From a virus (taxonomy: Duplodnaviria > Heunggongvirae > Uroviricota > Caudoviricetes), in the IMG/VR virus record IMGVR_UViG_2698536471_000020, positions 1 through 9,675 of that record: a stretch of 9,675 nt of DNA; one strand, given 5' to 3'. Every line of letters begins with the position of its first letter. Positions within the stretch are counted from its first letter, which is position 1. The translations under genes and the position numbers were made by a program. The notes below the pieces were generated by a model. It searched no databases and was not told the DNA's origin. It saw nothing but the letters and a program-made list of their open reading frames with translations. This document shows, piece after piece, positions 258-9,675 of the stretch.

Positions 258-2147
258 TCAGAGTGAATCTGTCCCGCCTGATTTGACCATACCGCGATAA
301 TCCAGAGCTGCCACACCTGCATCAATACGGACTTTCCAGGCCACGCCGTCAACGATAAAACCTTCCTGCTGTTCAAGGTAAGGCTCGTCATTGCCATCAA
401 GATAAGCCACCTCGATTGTGTCCGTTCCCTGTGCGGAAAGCATGTACCATTGTTTTTCGCTGATATCATCAAGGCGGGGATCGACGATGATATCAAGTAG
501 CTTGTGGTACGGGTTAAAGATCCCGCTGTTTTTATCAGCCCCGAAAGGTGCGGTTGAGTTAATCATCTGCAACGCGCGATCTTCCAGTGCTGCCGGAACT
601 AAAAGGAATTTAGGCGCAATATTCAGCACTTCGCCATTTTTGTCCTTCTGTGTGCGCATCAGGTGACGTGCTGCACTAAGTCCCGGTGTTGTCAGTCCTG
701 CTTCAATCAGGTTGCTGTGTTTTTTGTCAAACAGCGTTATTCCGTCAGAAAGTTTTACGTTGCCTGTAAGCACCAGATTAACCAGATTTCCCACCGTTCT
801 TGATGCTGCACGGCCCATAGCCATTGGCACCGTTGATAACTGATCAAGGTCATCATTGATTATCGCCTGGCGGGTAATGCTGAAAATATTCCCGTAAGTA
901 GCCAGCGCGATGGGTTCACCGCGATCGCTGGTGGTGATGTATTTATATTCTGCCCCTTCCGGAACTTTGTTTAACGTTGAGAAGCCATTCATACCAACGC
1001 GGCGGGCTTCCCGGAAGTTTGAAAGGGAACCTTTTTTCGTCCACTGGCGGAATGTTTCGCCGCTGTGCTCCCAGCCTGCAAGCACTGATTTTTCAGCGCC
1101 ACCAGCAAGGATATCGGTAAAATCGCTGCTGCTGTGGGTGAATGCCGCGTTTACTATCTGCGAGCGTGTGCTGTAGCTGCCCGTGCTTATACCACGATGG
1201 GTTAATGATGCCTGTGCCATATCGAAAAGGCTCATCATGGCGTAAGGATTACCGCGTTCGGCCCGTTCGTGACCAAGACGCGCATTAAGCCCCTGACGCA
1301 TGGCATCGCCAGTTATATTGCCGTTATCCGTGTACGCGTAGTAAAGATTTGCGGGGGTGGTTTTGTTTGTTGGCGTTGATTCTTTACCCATAGCGAGTAA
1401 AAGGCGTTCGCGTGCATTCTCAACGCTACATTCTGAATCCGCAAGACAACTTATAGCCAGGTCGTTATATCTTCCGTTGAAGGTGCCAAACAATTCACGG
1501 ATGCCGTTAAGTCGTTCCTGTTCGCCACTGCCAGTTTTCTGGCTGATCATGCTTTTAATTTTTTCCGGCATATTTGAAAAATCTCCGATTCGTTTTGATT
1601 CAATTCGGGCCATTGCTGTAATCGCGGGTATAACCTCATCTGCGAAACCGTTAGCCTTACACTCATTGCCATCCATCCAGGTTTCCGCCTCCATCATGGA
1701 GGTGATTTCCTGTTTGCTCCTGCCCGTTCTTCCGGCATAGGTTTCTGCCATCGTGTCGCCCAGCTTGTCCATCAGATCAGCAAAGCGGCGAACGTCGCCC
1801 GACACTCCGGCAGTAACACCACGGGGGGCATGTATCATCATCATCGCGTTTTCAGGCATAACGATATGATCTCCACACATGGCAATAAACGAGGCCATAG
1901 AAGCCGCCATGCCTTCAATGTGTACGATTTTTTTTGCCGGATGATTTTTCAGAGCGTTATAGATAGCCAGCCCTTCAAAGATGTCGCCACCAGGTGAATG
2001 GATGCGAAGATGGATTTCAGACGCATTACCACACGCGTTGATCTCGTCAGTAAGTGCCGATGCTTTTACACCGTACCCGCCGATCTCGTCATAAATGCGC
2101 ACATAGACAACATCTGCCATAGCCTTAATGGAAAACCATGTTTTCAT
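258..2147 (-). CDS. Prohead protease (ClpP/S14-like) fused to a scaffold-like linker and a major capsid protein domain (HK97-type, inferred)
   Basis: 629-aa ORF. N-terminal ~190 aa carries ClpP-type signatures (GMAASMAS serine motif, MMMIHAPRG histidine motif). The C-terminal ~300 aa reads as a capsid-like domain by composition and position, not by a specific motif. Start overlaps the upstream small ORF stop (ATGA). Confidence 0.75.
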   Translation of the reverse strand: MKTWFSIKAMADVVYVRIYDEIGGYGVKASALTDEINACGNASEIHLRIHSPGGDIFEGLAIYNALKNHPAKKIVHIEGMAASMASFIAMCGDHIVMPENAMMMIHAPRGVTAGVSGDVRRFADLMDKLGDTMAETYAGRTGRSKQEITSMMEAETWMDGNECKANGFADEVIPAITAMARIESKRIGDFSNMPEKIKSMISQKTGSGEQERLNGIRELFGTFNGRYNDLAISCLADSECSVENARERLLLAMGKESTPTNKTTPANLYYAYTDNGNITGDAMRQGLNARLGHERAERGNPYAMMSLFDMAQASLTHRGISTGSYSTRSQIVNAAFTHSSSDFTDILAGGAEKSVLAGWEHSGETFRQWTKKGSLSNFREARRVGMNGFSTLNKVPEGAEYKYITTSDRGEPIALATYGNIFSITRQAIINDDLDQLSTVPMAMGRAASRTVGNLVNLVLTGNVKLSDGITLFDKKHSNLIEAGLTTPGLSAARHLMRTQKDKNGEVLNIAPKFLLVPAALEDRALQMINSTAPFGADKNSGIFNPYHKLLDIIVDPRLDDISEKQWYMLSAQGTDTIEVAYLDGNDEPYLEQQEGFIVDGVAWKVRIDAGVAALDYRGMVKSGGTDSL

Positions 2148-3502: not shown

Positions 3503-3550
3503 ATTTATTTTTACCCCCTCGTTTAAAAAGTTTTGAGTTGTGCCTCCCCC

Positions 3551-3775
3551 CATCTACCCATCTACCCGAATGCTCATCATGTCAGTAATGGCGCGGCTTT
3601 CAGCGGGTAGATAGCTTTTTTGGCTCCTCTACCTGCCGTCTACCCTGCTACCTGAAACTGATAAAATCAGGTAGAAGAGGTAGAGAGCTTTTATTAGCCT
3701 TCTACCTGGCCCTCTACCCACTTATCATGTTGAATAATATACGTTTATTTCATTCAGGTAGATGGGGTAGAGGGC
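3551..3775. repeat. Iteron array / putative replication origin
   Basis: At least 11 copies of the hexamer GGTAGA/TCTACC in alternating orientation, in pairs: TCTACC at 3553, 3561, 3628, 3639, 3701, 3713; GGTAGA at 3606, 3670, 3679, 3757, 3766; plus near-copy GCTACC at 3647. Longer unit GGTAGAKRGCTTTT three times; AT-rich spacers. Lies directly 3' of the primase-helicase gene. Confidence 0.65.
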
Positions 3776-3787
3776 TTTTACAAAAAA

Positions 3788-5542
3788 TTATAAAAACGCG
3801 TCGCAATCGTCTGTTGTAATTGCGTTGGTCTGCGTTACTCCCTTAACTTTTCGCGTAATATATTCATGCCCGTAAACTTTCGCCGCTGGCTTCATGGCCT
3901 TGCTGAACTCAGCCACGTTTAGCGGTTTGCTCCTGCCTGCGTATGCCATAAACGCCAGATAGACGCGGTAAAGGCTGTTCCTGGTCGTGTACTTCACTGA
4001 ATCACCACCGCCACCCATCATCAGGCCGCGCGCTTCCTCCAGAAAATTCAGGAACTGGCAAAACTCAATAACCGGATCCGTCTGTTGCTTTATTGCCAGT
4101 GCTTCATCACCGTCACGCTGTTCCAGTAGTAAAGCCCTCGCCTTTTCAGGGTCGGTAAAGTTCGCCAGCAAGCGGCGGATAATAACGGGGATTTCAGCCG
4201 CAATTTTTTCCGGTAGTTCCCTGTCTTTTTCGGCCTCACTAACAATATTGTCGAAACGGAAAATCACGCGACGACGTGCCACACCTCCGGCCCGTTCGGT
4301 GAATATCATCGGGTTATTATTGGTCGCCAGCACCACCGCCCTGATTACCGCCGTGAAACGCTTTTCATATTTCGGGTTTATTTCCACGGGGTCGCCGCCC
4401 GTGATTTTCTTGATGCCCGTTCCTTCGCCTGTATATTTCGGCTGGTCTGCTAGGACGATAAGACGACTCCCGACAACCTGCGCACGTCCACCAGCATCAT
4501 CAAGCGATGTCATTTCAGCGCTTACCGTGTTCTGTTTCCCTGCCAGAAGGCTGGCTATGTGTGTGAATGTACTTTTACCGCTCCCGCCGTCTCCGGTGGC
4601 CTCAATAAACATCTGCCAGTCGTACCGGTTCGCCATAATCATGTACAGCGCGGCACATATACGCATCATCTTGCGCGGGTCTTTTCCGGCTGCGTGCTCA
4701 AGCCATTTATGAAAGTTTGGCGCGTTGTCGCGGATATTCTCCCCTGGTGCTGGTGGCGTGTACTCAATGCCGTTGTGCGTGGTGATCCAGTTCTCCGGCG
4801 TGTGCGGGGAAAATTCCCCCGTTTTCAGGTCAAGCGCACCATTGGCGAACGGCAGCAAATCGCCGGACGGCTCGCCCATTGGTTCGGCAATAACTTTTAA
4901 CGCTTCCACGGCGTTATTGATTACGCGCTTGCTGAAAGTGGCCCTGTGCTCTGAATAGATCGCCACCATTTCGCGGCTAAGTTCCATTGTGCTGACCGGA
5001 CACCATACCCCGCCGCGCCATACGTGAACAATTTCACTTTCAGGATGTACGCAAACGCCATCAAAGCGATCGGCAAGCAGCTGCGCGCGCTCACTGTCCG
5101 CCATCTGCGAAAGTTGCGCCTTTTGCTTTACCGGAAGCTCAATGACCAGACCATCAGAAAGATTCTGGCGTTCACGGGCCAGGTATTCGCGCCAGTTCTG
5201 CACCTCCTTGCCGTGCATACCCTCAGGATAAAAATTTGCATCCTGTACACCAGCCGCCGCCAGCTTTTGACCAATCGCCTTTATCATTACTGGTGCAAGA
5301 TATCCGGCCCTGAATATGCGCACGGATTTTCTGCCTTCCGGCACAATTTGCAGCTTATCCAGTTCTGATAACTGCTGCTCCCCAAGCCACACAGGAGGCT
5401 CATTATCTCCGGCCATACGCGCGTCATGTTCCTGCCATTGTTTTGCGTGTGACCAGGCATCACTACCCGCAAAAATAATGACTTCTGTTTCTTTGTGTTT
5501 TATGCCGCGTGACTGCTGTTTTACGTTCGGTGCCAGTTTCAT
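3788..5542 (-). CDS. Replication protein: primase / SF3-type helicase (P4 alpha C-terminal / D5-like family)
   Basis: 584-aa ORF with Walker A P-loop GDGGSGKST and downstream hydrophobic stretch LIVLAD (Walker B-like); size and position (after alpA and small genes, before origin iterons) as for satellite pri/rep genes. ATG overlaps the upstream ORF stop (ATGA at 5539-5542). Confidence 0.8.
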   Translation of the reverse strand: MKLAPNVKQQSRGIKHKETEVIIFAGSDAWSHAKQWQEHDARMAGDNEPPVWLGEQQLSELDKLQIVPEGRKSVRIFRAGYLAPVMIKAIGQKLAAAGVQDANFYPEGMHGKEVQNWREYLARERQNLSDGLVIELPVKQKAQLSQMADSERAQLLADRFDGVCVHPESEIVHVWRGGVWCPVSTMELSREMVAIYSEHRATFSKRVINNAVEALKVIAEPMGEPSGDLLPFANGALDLKTGEFSPHTPENWITTHNGIEYTPPAPGENIRDNAPNFHKWLEHAAGKDPRKMMRICAALYMIMANRYDWQMFIEATGDGGSGKSTFTHIASLLAGKQNTVSAEMTSLDDAGGRAQVVGSRLIVLADQPKYTGEGTGIKKITGGDPVEINPKYEKRFTAVIRAVVLATNNNPMIFTERAGGVARRRVIFRFDNIVSEAEKDRELPEKIAAEIPVIIRRLLANFTDPEKARALLLEQRDGDEALAIKQQTDPVIEFCQFLNFLEEARGLMMGGGGDSVKYTTRNSLYRVYLAFMAYAGRSKPLNVAEFSKAMKPAAKVYGHEYITRKVKGVTQTNAITTDDCDAFL

Positions 5543-5838
5543 TTTTTACCCCTGAATACGTTAAGCATCTTTTTTATTTCCTGAATATTGGCGCGTGCTT
5601 TCTCCCTGCTGGTGGGCTTGCTGCGTTGCGCTGCCTGCACCAGAGAAAAATCACGGTCGAACTGATAAACGGGCATCACGCAATCATATTCGTAACCTTC
5701 ACGGAGGTAAGTTACGCACCGTCCCGCCACGCCCTTAATCATTACCGTGCCGCCGTACTGGTCGCGGTAAATATCACCGCGCGTAAATTTAGGGTGAGTG
5801 TTGCCACTGGCAGTTAAGCCAGAATATTTAAGTTTCAT
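5539..5838 (-). CDS. Hypothetical protein (99 aa), translationally coupled to the primase gene
   Basis: ORF with GGAGA Shine-Dalgarno about 9-10 nt upstream of the ATG; ATGA overlap with primase start. No motif recognised. Confidence 0.55.
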   Translation of the reverse strand: MKLKYSGLTASGNTHPKFTRGDIYRDQYGGTVMIKGVAGRCVTYLREGYEYDCVMPVYQFDRDFSLVQAAQRSKPTSREKARANIQEIKKMLNVFRGKK

Positions 5839-5843
5839 TATTT

Positions 5844-6074
5844 TTATTCTCCGGTGTGGGGCGCGTTATTATTTTCGTGAATTGCCATTGCCTTATCCAG
5901 TTCATCAATAACAGGCGATAGTAATGTCTGAATGGCTGCAAACATTAATACACCTGATTCCTCACCACCTTCCGGCACTTCAATTAATTTAATTAACAAC
6001 GCATTCATTTCGCGTGCTTTAATTAATGCGTTTTCAGAGTGGATTAATACTTCAAAAGGGATTTTATGCATCAC
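5844..6074 (-). CDS. Hypothetical small acidic protein (76 aa), in an AT-rich segment
   Basis: ORF preceded by AAGGGAG; predicted helical, many Glu/Asp. Local sequence is visibly more AT-rich than flanking genes (GC not computed). Confidence 0.45.
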   Translation of the reverse strand: MMHKIPFEVLIHSENALIKAREMNALLIKLIEVPEGGEESGVLMFAAIQTLLSPVIDELDKAMAIHENNNAPHTGE

Positions 6075-6294
6075 AAATTTTCTCCCTTATTCTTTTAATG
6101 TCCTCATTAAGGATGTCTGTAACTTTTATCAGCGAGTTTTTGGCAATTATTTTTATTGTTTTAAGTTTTCTTTTGTCGTGCTCCGACTGTGATTTTCTCT
6201 CCATAATCTCCACCATGTGGGTAACATCAACGAGCGCACGTATCAGTATTTGCATTGCTTCTTCTGCTGCGTCCGGTGTGGTTTTATTGTGCAT
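6064..6294 (-). CDS. Hypothetical small protein (76 aa), in an AT-rich segment; overlaps the downstream ORF by 11 nt
   Basis: ORF preceded by AGGGGA; Lys/Glu-rich helical composition. No motif recognised. Confidence 0.45.
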   Translation of the reverse strand: MHNKTTPDAAEEAMQILIRALVDVTHMVEIMERKSQSEHDKRKLKTIKIIAKNSLIKVTDILNEDIKRIREKICDA

Positions 6295-6496
6295 AAAGCA
6301 TCCCCTGAATATTCGTGTTAATCATTCCGGCACGTTTTGTGATTTCCTGTAATGATTCCCTTGTGGCGACAATTGCTTCATCTGGTAAGTGGTAATTACA
6401 CACCACGCGACCTTTATCCACATTGACCAGTAGCTGCCCTGTGAATTTCTCACGAAACTGAATGCGGTTAAGGTCAGTAAGTGACAGATTAATCAT
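6284..6496 (-). CDS. Hypothetical protein (70 aa from the ATG at 6496), start overlaps the icd-like stop
   Basis: Strong SD AGGAGG 6 nt upstream of the ATG at 6494-6496; ATGATTAA start/stop overlap with the icd-like gene. The track ORF start at 6538 lies inside icd-like and lacks an SD. Confidence 0.5.
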   Translation of the reverse strand: MINLSLTDLNRIQFREKFTGQLLVNVDKGRVVCNYHLPDEAIVATRESLQEITKRAGMINTNIQGMLYAQ

Positions 6497-6677
6497 GGCG
6501 CACCTCCTGACGAATACGGGCGGCAAATACAGCAACACAACCGGACGGGCAACGGTTACGCGCTTCGCGTTCCGTCCAGGCGGTTACGTGGATGATTTGA
6601 TGTTCTGACGCGCCAAAGATGATAAAGCGCCAGAGAAAGGCGGTTTGAGAATGTACAAGGGTAGGGATAGTAGCCAT
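6489..6677 (-). CDS. Icd-like small protein (host cell division inhibitor Icd-like family, 62 aa)
   Basis: It is the C-terminal tail of the 416-codon track ORF, but a strong SD (GAGGAGG) sits 8 nt upstream of the internal ATG at 6675-6677. Sequence MATIPTLVHSQTAFLWRFIIFGASEHQIIHVTAWTEREARNRCPSGCVAVFAARIRQEVRHD fits the remembered Icd-like pattern (F-W-RF ... ERxAR ... FAARxP/Q-E); family assignment is from memory, not a search. Confidence 0.6.
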   Translation of the reverse strand: MATIPTLVHSQTAFLWRFIIFGASEHQIIHVTAWTEREARNRCPSGCVAVFAARIRQEVRHD

Positions 6678-6839
6678 GTTGGCAGCCTCCTCAGTGTGGT
6701 TAAGATAACCGCCACCGGAAACGCCAATTTCGCTGGTGGCGGACTGTACAGGGTTGGCGTAACCGGACACTGAAGAAACCGGCGCGGATTGCTCCGCCCC
6801 CGTACAGCCCACCATTGATAAGGTGTGACTATGCGGCAC

Positions 6840-6861
6840 AAAAAAACACGCGGGGCGCGTG
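6840..6861 (-). terminator. Rho-independent terminator inside the leader upstream of icd-like
   Basis: Minus strand reads CACGCG ccc CGCGTG followed by TTTTTTT (plus-strand A-run 6840-6846, stems 6847-6852 and 6856-6861). Confidence 0.7.
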
Positions 6862-7103
6862 TTATGCGCTTCAGTTTTGCCCAGGACGCCAATCCCGGCA
6901 CCCGTTTTATGAGGTGCGCGGGAATCATAGCCATTTTTGCTGGTGGCGATCAACTGGTTTTTTACACCCGCTTTATTCAGGTTGTGTGAGTCCCGCCCTT
7001 GCGGGTGTGTGGTATGATTTCTCATAGCTACCTCGATACTTTCGCTATCGTTGGTGGTCAGAGGCTGCGAAAGGACGGCAATCCTTTTCAGCCTCGTTTG
7101 CAT

Positions 7104-7207
7104 TGAGTGATAAACACTCAGCTGGATTCCAGTATAATCACTAAGTGGAATCCACTTCAAGCGTTTTGTTTTGGTCTTTTTCGTGTATACTGGATTCCAG
7201 TAATCAC
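7104..7207. promoter_or_regulatory. Divergent promoter/operator region with three TGGAWTCCA palindromes
   Basis: Palindromes CTGGATTCCAG (7122-7132), AAGTGGAATCCACTT (7143-7157), CTGGATTCCAG (7190-7200); extra inverted repeat TGAGTG-ataaa-CACTCA (7104-7120). Minus-strand promoter TTGAAG (7160-7155), 18-nt spacer, TATACT (7136-7131) overlaps the plus-strand TATAAT (7133-7138). Direct repeat CTGGATTCCAGTA(T)AATCAC at 7122-7142 and 7190-7207. Confidence 0.6.
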
Positions 7208-7221
7208 AAAGGGAACCAGAA

Positions 7222-7401
7222 ATGGAAAGAGACCATATCAATAACAAATCACAGAAATTACAGGCTCGCGCCCCGCATGAAGTTGTTGAGGCTATGGAGC
7301 AAGTAAAAGAAACAGGCGAGAGCACTGCGCAATTTATCGTTACAGCCATGCGAGGCGAGATCAAACGCCGCCAGCGCCGTAAGGCCAAAGAATCAGAATA
7401 A
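7222..7401 (+). CDS. Small ribbon-helix-helix-like DNA-binding protein (59 aa; below the ORF-track size cut-off)
   Basis: ATG at 7222 with AGGGA about 8 nt upstream, TAA at 7399-7401. Translation MERDHINNKSQKLQARAPHEVVEAMEQVKETGESTAQFIVTAMRGEIKRRQRRKAKESE has an RHH-like layout (basic strand RAPHEVV, two short helices, basic tail). Sits immediately downstream of the operator palindromes. Confidence 0.45.
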   Translation: MERDHINNKSQKLQARAPHEVVEAMEQVKETGESTAQFIVTAMRGEIKRRQRRKAKESE

Positions 7402-7458
7402 TCACTATCAGCGCCGTGGTGTGAGGTACTACGGCGCATTGCTTTACAGGGCAGTACC

Positions 7459-7686
7459 ATGACTAACAACACACTATCACCAATACAAGACACGCAAACG
7501 CAAGATGATGAAATCATCCGGCAAAGGCAGTCAGAAGCCTGCGCCAGAGTTGAGGAAGAACTAACCAGAACAAAAATACCACCACCAGCGCCGCGCTTAA
7601 TGCCACCAGAAAAATTTGCCCTTGAAGATTTTGTCGAGAAATACCCACGGCGGTTAAAAGCCACTAAAAACCGACCGCCTGGCTGA
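7459..7686 (+). CDS. Hypothetical protein (75 aa), possibly co-transcribed with the RHH-like gene
   Basis: ORF with protein-like charged composition but a weak SD. A hairpin GCGCCGT (7411-7417) / ACGGCGC (7431-7437) lies between it and the RHH gene. Convergent with alpA. Confidence 0.3.
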   Translation: MTNNTLSPIQDTQTQDDEIIRQRQSEACARVEEELTRTKIPPPAPRLMPPEKFALEDFVEKYPRRLKATKNRPPG

Positions 7687-7832
7687 TAGCCTTGTCCACC
7701 AGCTACGGCGGTGCTAAGATTGAAAGCTGCATAAGTCATGAAATAAACTCCTTAGCGGTGCATACGCGCCGCTTCTTTCTTCACGAACAACTACAAACAA
7801 AAACACGGACGGAATTTAAAGAATGAATATTC

Positions 7833-8027
7833 TTAATTGACGCGTTCGCGGTTTTTGACCCACGCCACAACCTCAGACTTAACCCAGCCAACAGAACGAC
7901 CGCCGAGACTGATACGGGAAGGGAAGCGGCCCTGCTTTTCCATCTCGTAACGAGTTGTGCGGCAAACGCCTGTTAGCTCTCTGCATTCTTTTTCGCGGAT
8001 TACACGATCTTCATTTATTTCGCGCAT
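7833..8027 (-). CDS. alpA: AlpA-family transcriptional regulator / excisionase-like protein
   Basis: 64-aa ORF; HTH followed by GGRSVGWVKSEVVAWV matches the AlpA (Phage_AlpA) pattern; located directly downstream of the integrase on the same strand. Confidence 0.8.
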   Translation of the reverse strand: MREINEDRVIREKECRELTGVCRTTRYEMEKQGRFPSRISLGGRSVGWVKSEVVAWVKNRERVN

Positions 8028-8360
8028 AAAAAGCCCTACATAAAATTACGTATAGAAATTTTTGTTTCGCTGTGGATATACGGAAAGAGATTACTTCTTA
8101 GCTTTTCTTACCTCTTAAATTGAAGGCGTAACCTTGCCAAAAGCTATGCTCGCCAAGGTTCGCAAGGGTTCGTTGTTGTTCATAAAATCGTTGCACACCA
8201 GGAAAGACAATTCAACATTAAAATTCCCTCTACAGTGAGGGATAATTAAAAAAACAAATTAAAACAGTCACATAAAAGCATGCACTTTGAAATAAAGGAA
8301 AATATTAAAACTCAAGTAGACAATCGCTGTTTTCAAATTTTTTCAATACTTGACACATAT

Positions 8361-8436: not shown

Positions 8437-9675
8437 TCAAGAATTTTGAGAGTAAATTCGCGGGGTCATAACAACGATTTTTTCATCATTGTTCTGGAGA
8501 AGCTCGAGACGCTCAACCCATAGATTAAGAGCGTCACGTTTTGCATCGAGATAACGGGAGTGATTATAGACTCGTTGCACTCCTGGCAACTGGTGCGCGG
8601 TTAGCTGCTCCACTACATGAGGATCCACGCCTAAATCGTTCAGCATCGTTGTAAACGTGTGCCGGATGTCGTGCAACGTCCAGGGGGCTTGATTAATGCG
8701 TCTGTGTGCCGTTCTTCCGTACTCTGATACAGATGATTGCCCTTTCAGTTCTCCGAGCAATAAGCCTGTATGCCTGTTCTGCTCAACCAGCTGCGTGACG
8801 AACGGCAAGATCGCTTCCGGTATAGGCCGGAATATTGCTACCTTCGTTTTGCTGTGCTCCTTCGGAACGGTCCAGAGCATTTCTTTAAAATCCCATTCCT
8901 GGACCTCAGAGCGTCTTAGCTCAGTGGTACGGCATCCGAAGACAATCAGGAGGCGAATCAGGGCGCTGTAGTACGGTGGGTAAATTTTTTCATCCAGGGC
9001 GCGGAGTAATTCCCCAAGCTCCTTGTTTGTTAGTACGCGCTGGCTTATTTCTGCTTTTTTCCCAACATCACCGACAACCATATCATCAAGAACGTTGCTG
9101 ATTGCGTAGCGTCGTTTGCGGCAGTACTTAAGCGCCTGCTTGCATACCTGCAACAAAAAACCTGCTGATACCGGATTACGCTTAGCAAGCTGATCAAAAC
9201 AGGTCAGCCAGTGGCGTAGCTCGCATTTTTCCAGCGGCATAGCACCAATCTGGCTGATTATGTGTGTATTGATCCGGCTCTTCAGAGATTCGTAGTCTGT
9301 GCGCTTTTCCTTCGCGTACGATTCAAGCCAGTAAGTGAGCGCTTCCTTAACCGTAACAGGTGATAACGCTTCCTGTACGGTGTGATTAAGCTCATGGCGT
9401 GGATTTTTCCCCTCAGCAAGCCAGGCGCGACACTGCGCCGCTTTTTCCCTGGCTGCTTTCAGGCTCAAATCAGGATAATTTCCCAGCCTCAGACGTTCAG
9501 GGGATACCTTCCTGCCTGTTCCGGCCCTGTAAGTGAAATACCAGGTTAACAGGCCATTGGTTGAATGCCTTACGCTAAGGTTGCCACCATCATTAAAAAA
9601 GGTGTTTTTTGTGGTTGGTGATCCGCTTAATTTTCGTAAAAGAGTGTCGCTAAGTCTATGAATTGCCCTGCTCAT
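8437..9675 (-). CDS. int: Tyrosine-type site-specific integrase (P4-type, arm-binding N-terminal domain)
   Basis: 412-aa ORF with catalytic-domain signatures in the translation: GCRTTELRRSE (box I Arg), LHDIRHTFTT (H-x-x-R), VYNHSRYLD (catalytic Tyr region). The ATG is the last 3 nt of the window, so the true start and the att site cannot be verified. Confidence 0.85.
   Translation of the reverse strand: MSRAIHRLSDTLLRKLSGSPTTKNTFFNDGGNLSVRHSTNGLLTWYFTYRAGTGRKVSPERLRLGNYPDLSLKAAREKAAQCRAWLAEGKNPRHELNHTVQEALSPVTVKEALTYWLESYAKEKRTDYESLKSRINTHIISQIGAMPLEKCELRHWLTCFDQLAKRNPVSAGFLLQVCKQALKYCRKRRYAISNVLDDMVVGDVGKKAEISQRVLTNKELGELLRALDEKIYPPYYSALIRLLIVFGCRTTELRRSEVQEWDFKEMLWTVPKEHSKTKVAIFRPIPEAILPFVTQLVEQNRHTGLLLGELKGQSSVSEYGRTAHRRINQAPWTLHDIRHTFTTMLNDLGVDPHVVEQLTAHQLPGVQRVYNHSRYLDAKRDALNLWVERLELLQNNDEKIVVMTPRIYSQNS

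What the first reader, a model, noticed from the sequence alone, without database searches (positions are those of the whole stretch)
5844..6294. AT-rich two-gene cassette of overlapping small helical proteins between icd-like and the primase gene
Two 76-aa ORFs (one Lys/Glu-rich, one markedly acidic) overlap by 11 nt and sit in a segment visibly more AT-rich than the flanking genes, suggesting separately acquired cargo. Small acidic proteins in phages and satellites are often anti-restriction or helper-interference factors; a toxin-antitoxin-like pair is an alternative. Neither matches a family I recognise.
Basis: inference. Interest (0 to 1): 0.55.

Follow-up and report, generated by a model that had tools for sequence, protein, structure and literature searches.

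The report
Small early-operon genes of an E. coli phage satellite
The two small AT-rich genes are real, but they are not a self-contained cargo cassette: they are two slots in a chain of overlapping genes running into the replication gene of an E. coli phage satellite, one slot always filled and one optional, and their function is unknown.

Summary
Two overlapping minus-strand genes (OrfA 5844-6071/6074, acidic; OrfB 6064-6294, Lys/Glu-rich) lie in a GC trough (0.38 against 0.485 for the window). Both are under purifying selection and are predicted two-helix hairpins. The "separately acquired two-gene cassette" reading is only partly right.

They are links in a chain of overlapping genes: isrK/seqA-like element, C4 RNA, Icd-like gene, OrfC, OrfB, OrfA, DUF4222, primase. 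The layout matches the P4 left operon (CI RNA/eta, epsilon, orf151, cnr, alpha).

In 79 of 79 DUF4222-anchored islands the gene directly upstream of DUF4222 belongs to the OrfA superfamily (phrog_2196). It is always acidic and is independent of replicase type. OrfB-type genes (phrog_5146) occur in 59 of 72 complete slots. The AT trough is present whichever genes fill the slot, so it does not mark recent acquisition.

No Pfam, NCBIfam, PADLOC, PDB or fold match exists. A toxin-antitoxin pair and a DNA-mimic anti-restriction protein are both disfavoured.

Most likely they are small binding proteins made when the satellite's replication operon is derepressed. The function is inferred, not shown. 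Modest interest: uncharacterised members of a known kind of element.

The parts
5844..6071 (-). OrfA, 75 aa (76 aa if the GTG at 6074 is used). Acidic two-helix hairpin of the phrog_2196 superfamily. It occupies the constant position directly upstream of DUF4222.
6064..6294 (-). OrfB, 76 aa. Lys/Glu-rich two-helix hairpin and a divergent member of phrog_5146. It occupies an optional slot position.
6284..6496 (-). OrfC, 70 aa, phrog_340. An optional slot gene that overlaps Icd-like by 8 nt and OrfB by 11 nt.
6489..6677 (-). Icd-like gene (NF033153). It is the C-terminal part of an Ash/eta-type reading frame (PF10554 over 6489-7100) and the counterpart of P4 eta/kil.
6732..6819 (-). C4 antisense RNA (P1 C4 / P4 CI type). 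Its 12-nt loop UUUCUUCAGUGU is complementary to the Icd-like Shine-Dalgarno region ACACUGAGGAGG (6699-6688).
   Evidence: 77.6 bits, gathering score 45; PMC10111431.
6841..6917 (-). isrK-type element (relative of P4 seqA). It carries a second C4-loop target (AACUGAAG) followed by an intrinsic terminator (6863-6845 plus a T-run).
   Evidence: 66 bits, gathering score 50.
6924..6953 (-). Sigma-70-like promoter candidate (TTGATC, 18 nt, TATGAT) just upstream of the isrK/C4 leader.
   Evidence: consensus scan only.
5539..5838 (-). DUF4222 gene (phrog_285). It starts 5 nt after OrfA, uses an RBS inside OrfA's last codons, and overlaps the primase by 4 nt.
3788..5542 (-). D5_N/DUF5906 primase-helicase, 40% identical to the C-terminal two thirds of P4 alpha. 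It is the last gene of the coupled chain.
3545..3780 (.). Array of at least 14 copies of an 8-nt iteron (TCTACC[C/T] / GGTAGA) in both orientations, directly downstream of the primase. Probable origin or crr-like region.
   Evidence: position analogous to P4 crr.

Best explanation
OrfA and OrfB are two independently inherited small protein genes in the early (replication) operon of a PICI-type, capsid-forming phage satellite integrated in the E. coli chromosome.

The operon reads on the minus strand: promoter, isrK/seqA-like leader with terminator, C4 (CI-type) antisense RNA, Icd-like/eta, OrfC, OrfB, OrfA, DUF4222, primase-helicase, then an iteron-rich origin. Each gene overlaps the next or starts within 5 nt of it, and each ribosome-binding site lies inside the end of the preceding gene. 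The small proteins are therefore made, by translational coupling, only when the operon is derepressed. In this island that means when the C4 RNA block on the Icd-like ribosome-binding site is overcome.

This is the architecture of the P4 left operon. OrfC, OrfB, OrfA and DUF4222 occupy the interval that epsilon (helper derepression), orf151 and cnr (copy-number control) occupy in P4, but they are not homologous to them.

OrfA is the local allele of a fixed, fast-diverging, always acidic helical-hairpin gene found just upstream of the replicase module in enterobacterial PICIs and cf-PICIs. OrfB is one allele of a frequent but dispensable neighbouring slot.

Inferred function, not shown: both are non-enzymatic helical-hairpin proteins, probably dimerising into four-helix bundles. 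They would act by binding another macromolecule, most likely a helper-phage or host protein, at the onset of satellite replication. They are not mobile cargo, a TA pair or a DNA mimic.
For: Operon and coupling:
- Overlaps of 8, 11 and 8 nt, a 5-nt gap and a 4-nt overlap, each with a Shine-Dalgarno sequence inside the upstream gene.
- No convincing internal promoter or terminator.
- PGAP calls the same chain of genes.

RNA control:
- C4 scores 77.6 bits and isrK 66 bits, both above their gathering scores.
- The C4 loop is complementary to the Icd-like RBS and to a site just before the leader terminator.
- PMC10111431 states that the Rfam C4 and isrK profiles detect P4 CI and seqA relatives in Gram-negative PICIs.

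P4 frame homology:
- AlpA matches Vis at 43% identity, and the primase matches alpha at 40% identity (E 3e-110).
- The window frame 6489-7100 and P4 eta both match PF10554.
- P4 shows the same 8-nt overlaps at its gene junctions.

OrfA as a fixed position:
- 79 of 79 DUF4222-anchored loci carry an OrfA-superfamily gene at position -1 (A 19, A2 54, A3 6).
- The three subtypes are united by profile searches and by phrog_2196.
- The same position relative to the replicase is seen in Klebsiella, Salmonella and Citrobacter cf-PICIs.
- The superfamily has 246 clusters, all in Enterobacteriaceae and all unnamed.

OrfB as an optional position:
- A B-type gene is present in 59 of 72 complete slots.
- OrfA occurs alone.

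Independence from the replicase:
- Identical OrfA and OrfB occur with D5_N, AAA_25 and DUF927 replicases.

Proteins are functional:
- dN/dS is 0.13-0.38.
- Both are predicted as confident helical hairpins.
Against: - No experiment or homology assigns a function. The fold searches returned only generic hairpins with E above 0.1.
- The binding-protein idea rests on size, fold and analogy with P4.
- C4 and isrK reach Rfam's thresholds in only 2 of 15 sampled sister islands. RNA control is therefore a property of this sub-lineage and not of every island that carries these genes.
- The strict linkage of OrfA to the replicase module across genera could equally point to a replication role.
- Translational coupling and transcription as a single operon are inferred from sequence only.
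- The survey sample is dominated by E. coli.
Confidence: 0.6

Rival explanations
1. OrfA is a replication accessory or regulator, the functional analogue of P4 Cnr, a helicase-loading or origin-remodelling factor. It would work with DUF4222 and the replicase, and OrfB would modulate it.
For: - OrfA-superfamily genes lie directly upstream, or one or two small genes upstream, of the replicase in every element examined, across four genera.
- P4 Cnr sits in the equivalent place.
- Expression is coupled to the primase.
- An iteron origin lies just downstream.
Against: - Identical OrfA protein is combined with three unrelated replicase types, so specific binding to the replicase is unlikely.
- DUF4222 stays 85-88% identical while the OrfA subtypes share only about 16-30% identity, so there is no co-variation.
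- DUF4222 is absent from the Klebsiella, Salmonella and Citrobacter elements that do have OrfA-like genes.
- There is no similarity to Cnr/DUF5375.
Confidence: 0.2
2. This is the first reader's view restricted to OrfB and the optional slot genes. They would be exchangeable accessory cargo aimed at the helper phage, competing phages or host defences (helper interference or anti-defence). AT-richness would reflect a foreign gene pool.
For: - The slot is combinatorial, with 1-5 genes drawn from at least 7 families.
- The OrfB DNA is identical in 22 loci that differ in OrfA allele, replicase, integrase and insertion site, consistent with recent spread by recombination.
- GC is low.
- In P4, epsilon acts on the helper from the same interval.
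Against: - There is no PADLOC, Pfam or NCBIfam hit.
- The AT trough is universal and old, not specific to OrfB.
- B-type genes are present in 82% of complete slots, more like a common operon component than sporadic cargo.
- Defence hotspots described for satellites lie elsewhere; PMC8628076 places the defence-system hotspot of P4-like elements between the integrase and psu.
Confidence: 0.12
3. OrfB (basic) and OrfA (acidic) form a toxin-antitoxin-like pair.
For: - The window pair has opposite charge (pI 8.8 and 4.9).
- Window-type OrfB is always followed by OrfA (10 of 10 contexts; 10 of 10), while OrfA occurs alone, resembling orphan antitoxins.
- A diverged B-A pair exists in L032.
Against: - OrfA-type genes are universal at this position, so the rule that B is always followed by A is trivially expected.
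- The homologous B' is acidic (pI 5.3) and is usually separated from A2 by another gene.
- Mosaic OrfA alleles sit next to identical OrfB DNA.
- There is no toxin or antitoxin domain.
- There is no promoter of its own.
- The pair is embedded in a six-gene coupled operon.
Confidence: 0.04
4. One of the hairpin proteins acts like ColE1 Rop. As a four-helix-bundle dimer it would bind and stabilise the kissing complex between the C4 RNA and its target, tuning immunity of the operon.
For: - Size and predicted helical-hairpin fold resemble Rop in general terms (the resemblance is from my own knowledge of Rop).
- An antisense-RNA switch lies at the head of the same operon.
Against: - Rop was not among the fold-search hits, and nothing scored below E 0.1.
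- OrfA-type genes are present in islands without a detectable C4 (13 of 15 sampled) and in AntA-type cf-PICIs.
- OrfA is acidic, which is unfavourable for RNA binding.
Confidence: 0.03

Closest known systems
Left (early) operon of satellite phage P4: PLE/PLL, seqA, CI RNA within eta/kil, epsilon, orf151, cnr, alpha
   Same: - Same order and strand logic.
- An AlpA/Vis-type regulator lies upstream (43% identity).
- An Ash-family (PF10554) frame contains a C4/CI-type RNA and an isrK/seqA-type site.
- The small genes are joined by 8-nt overlaps.
- An alpha-type primase-helicase follows (40% identity), and then an iteron region.
(PMC10111431.)
   Different: - The small genes themselves are not homologous. 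Neither OrfA, OrfB, OrfC nor DUF4222 matches epsilon (PF25738), orf151 or cnr (DUF5375).
- The element has no psu, sid or delta. Instead it carries its own capsid genes (ClpP-capsid fusion).
immI operon of phages P1 and P7 (c4 antisense RNA, icd, ant)
   Same: - A C4-family RNA sits directly upstream of an icd-like ORF.
- The RNA loop is complementary to the icd ribosome-binding site.
- Downstream genes are translationally coupled.
(. The P1 mechanism itself is from my own knowledge of the P1 literature.)
   Different: Downstream of icd lie small hairpin proteins and a replicase rather than an antirepressor. No Ant-type domain is present.
Gram-negative PICIs and capsid-forming PICIs (EcCICFT073, EcCIEDL933)
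   Same: - Gene order is int, alpA, variable zone, replicase with SSB, then capsid module.
- The O157 island L003 has the same layout, with an OrfA-superfamily gene (A3, phrog_2196/5796) upstream of DUF4222 and a DUF927 replicase.

   Different: The published descriptions read here do not characterise the small genes between the regulatory zone and the replicase.
The unnamed 75-aa family reported between Ash ('epsilon', PF10554) and alpha in 61% of P4-like satellites (PMC8628076)
   Same: Same size (75 aa), same interval (between the Ash-type gene and the primase), and unknown function.
   Different: Identity with OrfA could not be tested because no sequences or supplements are held. Every OrfA-superfamily context I found is PICI or cf-PICI, not psu/sid/delta P4-type, and close P4 relatives lack the gene.
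PHROG families phrog_2196 / phrog_5796 (OrfA type) and phrog_5146 / phrog_2512 (OrfB type)
   Same: Profile matches: OrfA to phrog_2196 at E 2e-8, OrfB to phrog_5146 at E 5e-6. Subtypes A3 and B' match the same families more strongly.
   Different: These families have no assigned function, so membership says nothing about mechanism.

Membership tests
Type II toxin-antitoxin pair | The two genes are inherited together as an obligate pair | tested here: not met
   OrfA occurs without any B-type gene in 13 of 72 slots, and alone next to Icd-like in many E. coli genomes. B' is usually separated from A2 by another gene. Mosaic OrfA alleles sit beside identical OrfB DNA.
Type II toxin-antitoxin pair | Recognisable toxin or antitoxin domain or fold | tested here: not met
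   No Pfam, NCBIfam or PADLOC hit. Both proteins are plain helical hairpins with no fold match below E 0.1.
Type II toxin-antitoxin pair | Autonomous bicistronic operon with its own promoter | tested here: inconclusive
   The consensus scan finds no minus-strand promoter in or just upstream of the pair, and the genes overlap their neighbours on both sides. No transcript data are available.
Type II toxin-antitoxin pair | Toxicity of one product neutralised by the other | not testable with these tools
   Needs expression assays.
DNA-mimic anti-restriction proteins (ArdA, Ocr, KlcA/ArdB) | Match to the family profiles | tested here: not met
   No Pfam hit at E up to 0.1 for OrfA or OrfB.
DNA-mimic anti-restriction proteins (ArdA, Ocr, KlcA/ArdB) | Very high negative charge density that mimics a DNA backbone | tested here: not met
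   OrfA has 12 D+E in 75 residues, net charge -7 and pI 4.9. The whole superfamily has pI 4.5-5.4. This is acidic but far from Ocr- or ArdA-like values; those comparison values are from my own knowledge.
DNA-mimic anti-restriction proteins (ArdA, Ocr, KlcA/ArdB) | Inhibition of type I restriction in vivo | not testable with these tools
   Needs plating assays.
P4 epsilon (PF25738) or P4 Cnr (DUF5375) | Sequence membership | tested here: not met
   P4 epsilon and cnr match their own Pfam families strongly. OrfA, OrfB, OrfC and DUF4222 do not match them, and BLASTP against the P4 proteins gives nothing below E about 2.
P4 epsilon (PF25738) or P4 Cnr (DUF5375) | Position between the CI-RNA/eta gene and the alpha-type primase, in a chain of overlapping genes | tested here: met
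C4/CI antisense-RNA-controlled operon (P1 immI, P4 immunity) | C4-family RNA and an isrK/seqA-type target site above Rfam's gathering scores, on the operon strand, upstream of the icd-like gene | tested here: met
   C4 77.6 bits (gathering 45) at 6732-6819; isrK 66 bits (gathering 50) at 6841-6917.
C4/CI antisense-RNA-controlled operon (P1 immI, P4 immunity) | RNA loop complementary to the ribosome-binding site of the first gene and to a site near a leader terminator | tested here: met
   The loop UUUCUUCAGUGU pairs with ACACUGAGGAGG at the Icd-like Shine-Dalgarno (duplex -27 kcal/mol for the 25-nt window) and with AACUGAAG just before the terminator at 6863-6845. Pairing is by sequence only; regulation is not shown.
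PHROG phrog_2196 (OrfA) and phrog_5146 (OrfB) | Profile match over most of the length | tested here: met
   OrfA residues 2-69 align to positions 1-70 of 74, E 2.2e-8. OrfB residues 1-70 align to positions 1-72 of 74, E 4.8e-6. Related subtypes score E 6e-11 to 2e-31.
PICI / capsid-forming PICI satellite (the host element) | int, alpA and replicase in one orientation followed by its own capsid genes, in a small island at a chromosomal att site | tested here: met
   Pfam hits for integrase, AlpA, D5_N primase, SSB and a ClpP-capsid fusion. A sister island with an identical 5500-6600 segment lies next to tRNA-Pro and yejM.
PICI / capsid-forming PICI satellite (the host element) | Induction and transfer by a helper phage | not testable with these tools
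   Needs experiments.
Rop-like RNA-binding four-helix bundle | Structural match to Rop | tested here: not met
   Rop is absent from the listed Foldseek PDB hits, and no hit falls below E 0.1.

The most novel reading that the evidence does not exclude
The OrfA superfamily is present in every DUF4222-type island surveyed and in cf-PICIs of four genera. It is always acidic, always next to the replication module, and has diverged into subtypes sharing about 16-30% identity while its neighbour DUF4222 stays 85-88% identical. This pattern would fit a satellite specificity factor. It could be a helper- or host-directed binding protein (the functional counterpart of P4 epsilon for PICIs) whose diversification tracks different helper phages. 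In that case the subtype (A, A2 or A3) would predict which helpers can induce or be exploited by a given island.
Probability: 0.12. Interest if true: 0.6.

Novelty: new member of a known kind. Interest (0 to 1): 0.3.

Why it matters
Gram-negative PICIs and capsid-forming PICIs are widespread in Enterobacteriaceae. The literature read here treats the stretch between their regulatory genes and the replicase as uncharacterised.

This analysis turns "two odd small ORFs" into a defined position in a P4-type early operon. One slot (the OrfA superfamily) is filled in every island examined, and the neighbouring slots are combinatorial. That gives experimenters a short, concrete target list for finding how these satellites start replication or interact with helpers: delete OrfA, A2 or A3; delete B or B'.

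The case also shows that a local GC trough inside a mobile element need not mean recently acquired cargo. For the window itself, the practical result is an annotation correction. The cassette is part of an operon headed by a C4/isrK RNA switch, and it is neither a TA module nor an anti-restriction gene.

Tried and rejected
1. Pfam, NCBIfam and PADLOC scans of OrfA, OrfB and OrfC gave nothing.
2. Foldseek searches against PDB (both models) and BFVD (OrfA) returned only generic helical hairpins with E above 0.1. These were not used as evidence.
3. The exhaustive profile search with the OrfA alignment found only 12 clusters at 50% identity, so the family is narrow and offers no informative distant relatives.
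4. tblastn of OrfA and OrfB against the phage collection gave one OrfA hit, itself a satellite deposited as a phage, and none for OrfB. blastn of the region against phages gave none.
5. The species-representative genome scans gave no OrfA locus and one DUF4222 locus, too sparse to use.
6. I tested whether OrfA and OrfB are paralogues. They show no similarity.
7. I considered that OrfB might be a chimera sharing only its N-terminal 38 residues with B'. I rejected this in favour of divergent full-length homology, because both match phrog_5146 end to end.
8. blastn detection of C4 in sister islands was too insensitive (6 of 80). I replaced it with Rfam on 15 loci, where 2 had C4.
9. The link to the 75-aa family of PMC8628076 could not be tested, because no supplements are held and close P4 relatives lack such a gene.
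10. A 10-nt direct repeat, TCCGGTGTGG, brackets the pair (5850-5859 and 6272-6281). About 0.13 such pairs are expected by chance in 521 nt, so I did not treat it as a cassette boundary.
11. A weak terminator-like hairpin inside OrfA (6015-5999) has 5 pairs and a poor T-run, and I dismissed it.
Full report
1. What is in the window.

The window is E. coli chromosomal DNA carrying a PICI-type satellite. On the minus strand it encodes:
- a tyrosine integrase (8437-9675);
- AlpA (7833-8027);
- an Icd-like protein;
- several small genes;
- DUF4222 (5539-5838);
- a D5_N/DUF5906 primase-helicase (3788-5542);
- a phrog_1231 protein;
- SSB;
- a ClpP-protease/major-capsid fusion (258-2147).

The stretch 5500-6600 is 100% identical to part of an island next to tRNA-Pro and yejM in strain 2014C-4587.

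2. The observation.

The two ORFs exist as described: 5844-6074 and 6064-6294, minus strand, 76 aa each, with an 11-nt overlap. PGAP and all homologues start OrfA at the ATG one codon later, giving 75 aa and an 8-nt overlap.

The segment has GC 0.381, against 0.486 for the window. GC3 is 0.33-0.40, against 0.50-0.56 in the flanking genes. It is the most AT-rich coding segment of the window.

OrfA is moderately acidic (pI 4.9, net -7). OrfB is Lys/Glu-rich (pI 8.8).

Both are real genes:
- Homologues are length-conserved and substitutions are conservative.
- dN/dS is 0.13-0.37 for OrfA and 0.375 for OrfB.
- They give weak but full-length PHROG hits to phrog_2196 and phrog_5146.
- AlphaFold2 models are two-helix hairpins with pLDDT 78.8 and 87.7.

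3. The pair is part of a longer coupled operon.

The junctions are as follows:
- Icd-like/OrfC: 8-nt overlap.
- OrfC/OrfB: 11-nt overlap.
- OrfB/OrfA: 8-nt overlap.
- OrfA/DUF4222: 5-nt gap.
- DUF4222/primase: 4-nt overlap.

Each downstream Shine-Dalgarno sequence lies inside the last codons of the upstream gene. This explains the invariant C-terminal T-G-E of OrfA, because GGAGAA is the DUF4222 RBS. A consensus scan finds no credible promoter or terminator on the minus strand inside the pair.

4. The head of the operon is an RNA switch.

Rfam finds two elements directly upstream of Icd-like, on the same strand:
- a full-length C4 antisense RNA at 6732-6819 (77.6 bits; gathering score 45);
- an isrK element at 6841-6917 (66 bits; gathering score 50).

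A promoter-like site (6953-6924) precedes them. The isrK element ends in an intrinsic terminator (6863-6845 plus a T-run).

The 12-nt loop of the second C4 hairpin, UUUCUUCAGUGU, is complementary (with G-U pairs) to ACACUGAGGAGG across the Icd-like Shine-Dalgarno. It is also complementary to AACUGAAG just before the leader terminator (and direct reading).

PMC10111431 states that the Rfam C4 and isrK profiles detect relatives of the P4 immunity RNA CI and its target seqA, and that they hit several Gram-negative PICIs.

The reading frame across this region (6489-7100) carries a full Ash domain (PF10554, E 3e-17). P4 eta, the gene in which CI is embedded, carries the same domain. PGAP names full-length eta in true P4-like prophages "Icd-like".

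5. Comparison with P4.

P4's left operon reads: vis, eta/kil (with CI), epsilon, orf151, cnr, alpha, crr. Its eta/epsilon and epsilon/orf151 junctions overlap by 8 nt.

The frame is homologous:
- AlpA matches Vis at 43% identity.
- The primase matches alpha at 40% identity (E 3e-110).
- Icd-like weakly matches the eta C-terminus (29% over 58 aa, E 0.05).

The small genes in between are not homologous. Neither OrfA, OrfB, OrfC nor DUF4222 resembles epsilon (PF25738, helper derepression), orf151 or cnr (DUF5375, copy-number control).

Directly downstream of the primase, 3545-3780 holds at least 14 copies of an 8-nt iteron (TCTACC[C/T]) in both orientations. This is positionally like P4 crr.

6. 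Is it a cassette, and is it cargo?

Among 5,426 complete E. coli genomes, 479 carry DNA similar to some part of the pair, but only 43 carry both genes. In the evenly spread sample of rows, the rest split roughly as follows:
- about 20% have OrfA alone, abutting Icd-like;
- about 10% have only a partial OrfA remnant;
- most of the remainder share only the first 72 nt of OrfB.

Exact OrfA and OrfB proteins occur in many contexts:
- with three unrelated replicases (D5_N primase, AAA_25 helicase, DUF927);
- with several integrases and insertion sites;
- with different upstream genes.

OrfB DNA is identical in 22 fetched loci whose OrfA alleles differ. One OrfA allele is a mosaic of two others, so recombination cuts inside OrfA.

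For an unbiased survey I anchored on DUF4222 in IMG/VR and obtained 80 loci. I annotated the interval up to the Icd-like gene.
- In 79 of 79 loci with enough upstream sequence, the gene directly upstream of DUF4222 is an OrfA-superfamily member: subtype A (window type) 19, A2 54, A3 (O157/EcCIEDL933-like) 6.
- The gap to DUF4222 is under 40 nt in 78 of them.
- The three subtypes share about 16-30% identity. They are tied together by a family profile (L002 E 6e-13; L003 E 0.002) and by phrog_2196 (A E 2e-8; A3 E 6e-11; Klebsiella copy E 3e-18).
- All subtypes are acidic (pI 4.5-5.4).
- The slot holds 1-5 genes, most often 3.
- B-type genes (phrog_5146) are present in 59 of 72 complete slots: window-type B in 10, always with A; B' in 49, usually with X and A2.
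- B' is acidic (pI 5.3), so the basic/acidic contrast of the window pair is not conserved.
- OrfA subtype and replicase type combine freely.
- The window's exact arrangement (Icd, C, B, A) is rare: 1 of 80 here, and 18 of about 1,296 records.

Beyond Escherichia:
- OrfA-superfamily genes form 246 clusters in Escherichia, Shigella, Klebsiella, Salmonella and Citrobacter. All are unnamed and without Pfam domains.
- They lie in canonical cf-PICIs, directly or one gene upstream of the replicase. None was found in a psu/sid/delta P4-type element.

7. The GC trough.

Across the 72 complete slots the mean GC values are: slot 0.447, Icd-like 0.554, DUF4222 0.493, replicase 0.534. The slot is lower than both flanks in 68 of 72 loci, whichever genes occupy it. 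OrfA alleles that differ at dS of about 0.9 all keep GC 0.36-0.40. The shift is therefore a long-standing property of this operon segment and does not mark recent import into this island.

8. Function.

Nothing assigns one:
- no Pfam, NCBIfam or PADLOC hits;
- no fold match below E 0.1 in PDB or BFVD;
- no discussion of these genes in the PICI, cf-PICI or EcCIMP1 papers read.

What is shown is the anatomy, the regulation-competent leader, the coupling signals, purifying selection, the fixed position of OrfA and the optional nature of OrfB.

What is inferred:
- The proteins are made only on derepression of the early operon.
- They are small non-enzymatic helical-hairpin binders, probably dimers, acting at the start of satellite replication on a helper or host target. 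P4 epsilon and cnr act from the same interval.

The alternatives fare as follows:
- A Cnr-like replication role for OrfA is the main rival. It is weakened because identical OrfA pairs with three replicase types, and because DUF4222 does not co-vary with OrfA subtype.
- A TA pair is unlikely: co-occurrence is not obligate, no domains match, there is no promoter of its own, and the charge pattern is not conserved.
- A DNA-mimic anti-restriction protein is unsupported.
- A Rop-like RNA-complex binder is a low-probability idea. Most sister islands lack a detectable C4 (2 of 15 have it) yet keep OrfA.

9. Verdict.

These are uncharacterised members of known PHROG families in a known kind of satellite. 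The useful new points are:
- the C4/isrK-headed operon, organised like the P4 left operon;
- the rule that an OrfA-superfamily gene always precedes DUF4222 and the replicase.

Interest is modest, at 0.3. It would rise if OrfA subtypes turn out to set helper specificity.

Noticed in passing
window 6732-6917 (-): A full-length C4 antisense RNA (6732-6819) and an isrK/seqA-type element with an intrinsic terminator (6841-6917) lie upstream of the Icd-like gene. The C4 loop is complementary to the Icd-like ribosome-binding site. Only 2 of 15 sister islands have these RNAs at Rfam's threshold.
   Followed up: yes
window 6489-7739 (-): The 416-aa ORF listed here is an artefact of a long open frame running across the RNA genes. 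Its 6489-7100 part encodes an Ash-family (PF10554) frame like P4 eta, of which the Icd-like protein is the C-terminal end. Gene callers differ between loci, giving products of 62 to 163 aa.
   Followed up: partly
window 3545-3780: A dense array of at least 14 copies of an 8-nt iteron (TCTACC[C/T] / GGTAGA) in both orientations lies in the AT-rich gap just downstream of the primase gene. It is probably the satellite's replication origin, positionally like P4 crr.
   Followed up: partly
window 258-2147 (-): A single 629-aa ORF fuses a ClpP-type prohead protease domain (residues 41-173) to a major capsid protein domain (330-623). The same fusion recurs in several sister islands (L011, L015, L019), while others have separate capsid genes.
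   Followed up: no
window junctions 6489-6496, 6284-6294, 6064-6071; also P4 (L031) 8168-8175 and 7888-7895; L002, L003, L006, L010: Module boundaries repeatedly use the same kind of junction. The upstream gene ends in ...H-A-stop or similar, with the next gene's ATG embedded (ATGCNTAA), so that many slot genes begin M-H/R/L-K/N. This shared junction could act both as a translational-coupling signal and as micro-homology for swapping modules.
   Followed up: partly
L006-L009 5001-5252 (protein P0120): An OrfA-family protein carries an 8-10-residue N-terminal extension (MFSNNTPD...) identical to the start of an OrfB variant (P0114). It looks as though an OrfB gene was deleted, leaving its first codons fused in frame to OrfA.
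   Followed up: no
window 7222-7401 (+) and 7459-7686 (+): A YlcI/YnfO-family gene and a 75-aa ORF are transcribed divergently from the early operon and convergently with alpA. Each is followed by a terminator-like hairpin (7411-7437, 7754-7773). The number of YlcI-like copies varies between islands (L004 has two). Their role is unknown; they may be regulatory.
   Followed up: no
window 5850-5859 and 6272-6281: A 10-nt direct repeat, TCCGGTGTGG, brackets almost exactly the OrfB-OrfA pair (spacing 422 nt). About 0.13 such pairs are expected by chance in this region, so it is probably coincidental.
   Followed up: partly
L035 2494-2610 (E. coli PK8275 and about 10% of the hits sampled): An unannotated remnant of the first 39 codons of an OrfA-type gene lies next to SSB, PerC and ProQ/FinO genes and IS elements. 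This is a decayed satellite.
   Followed up: no
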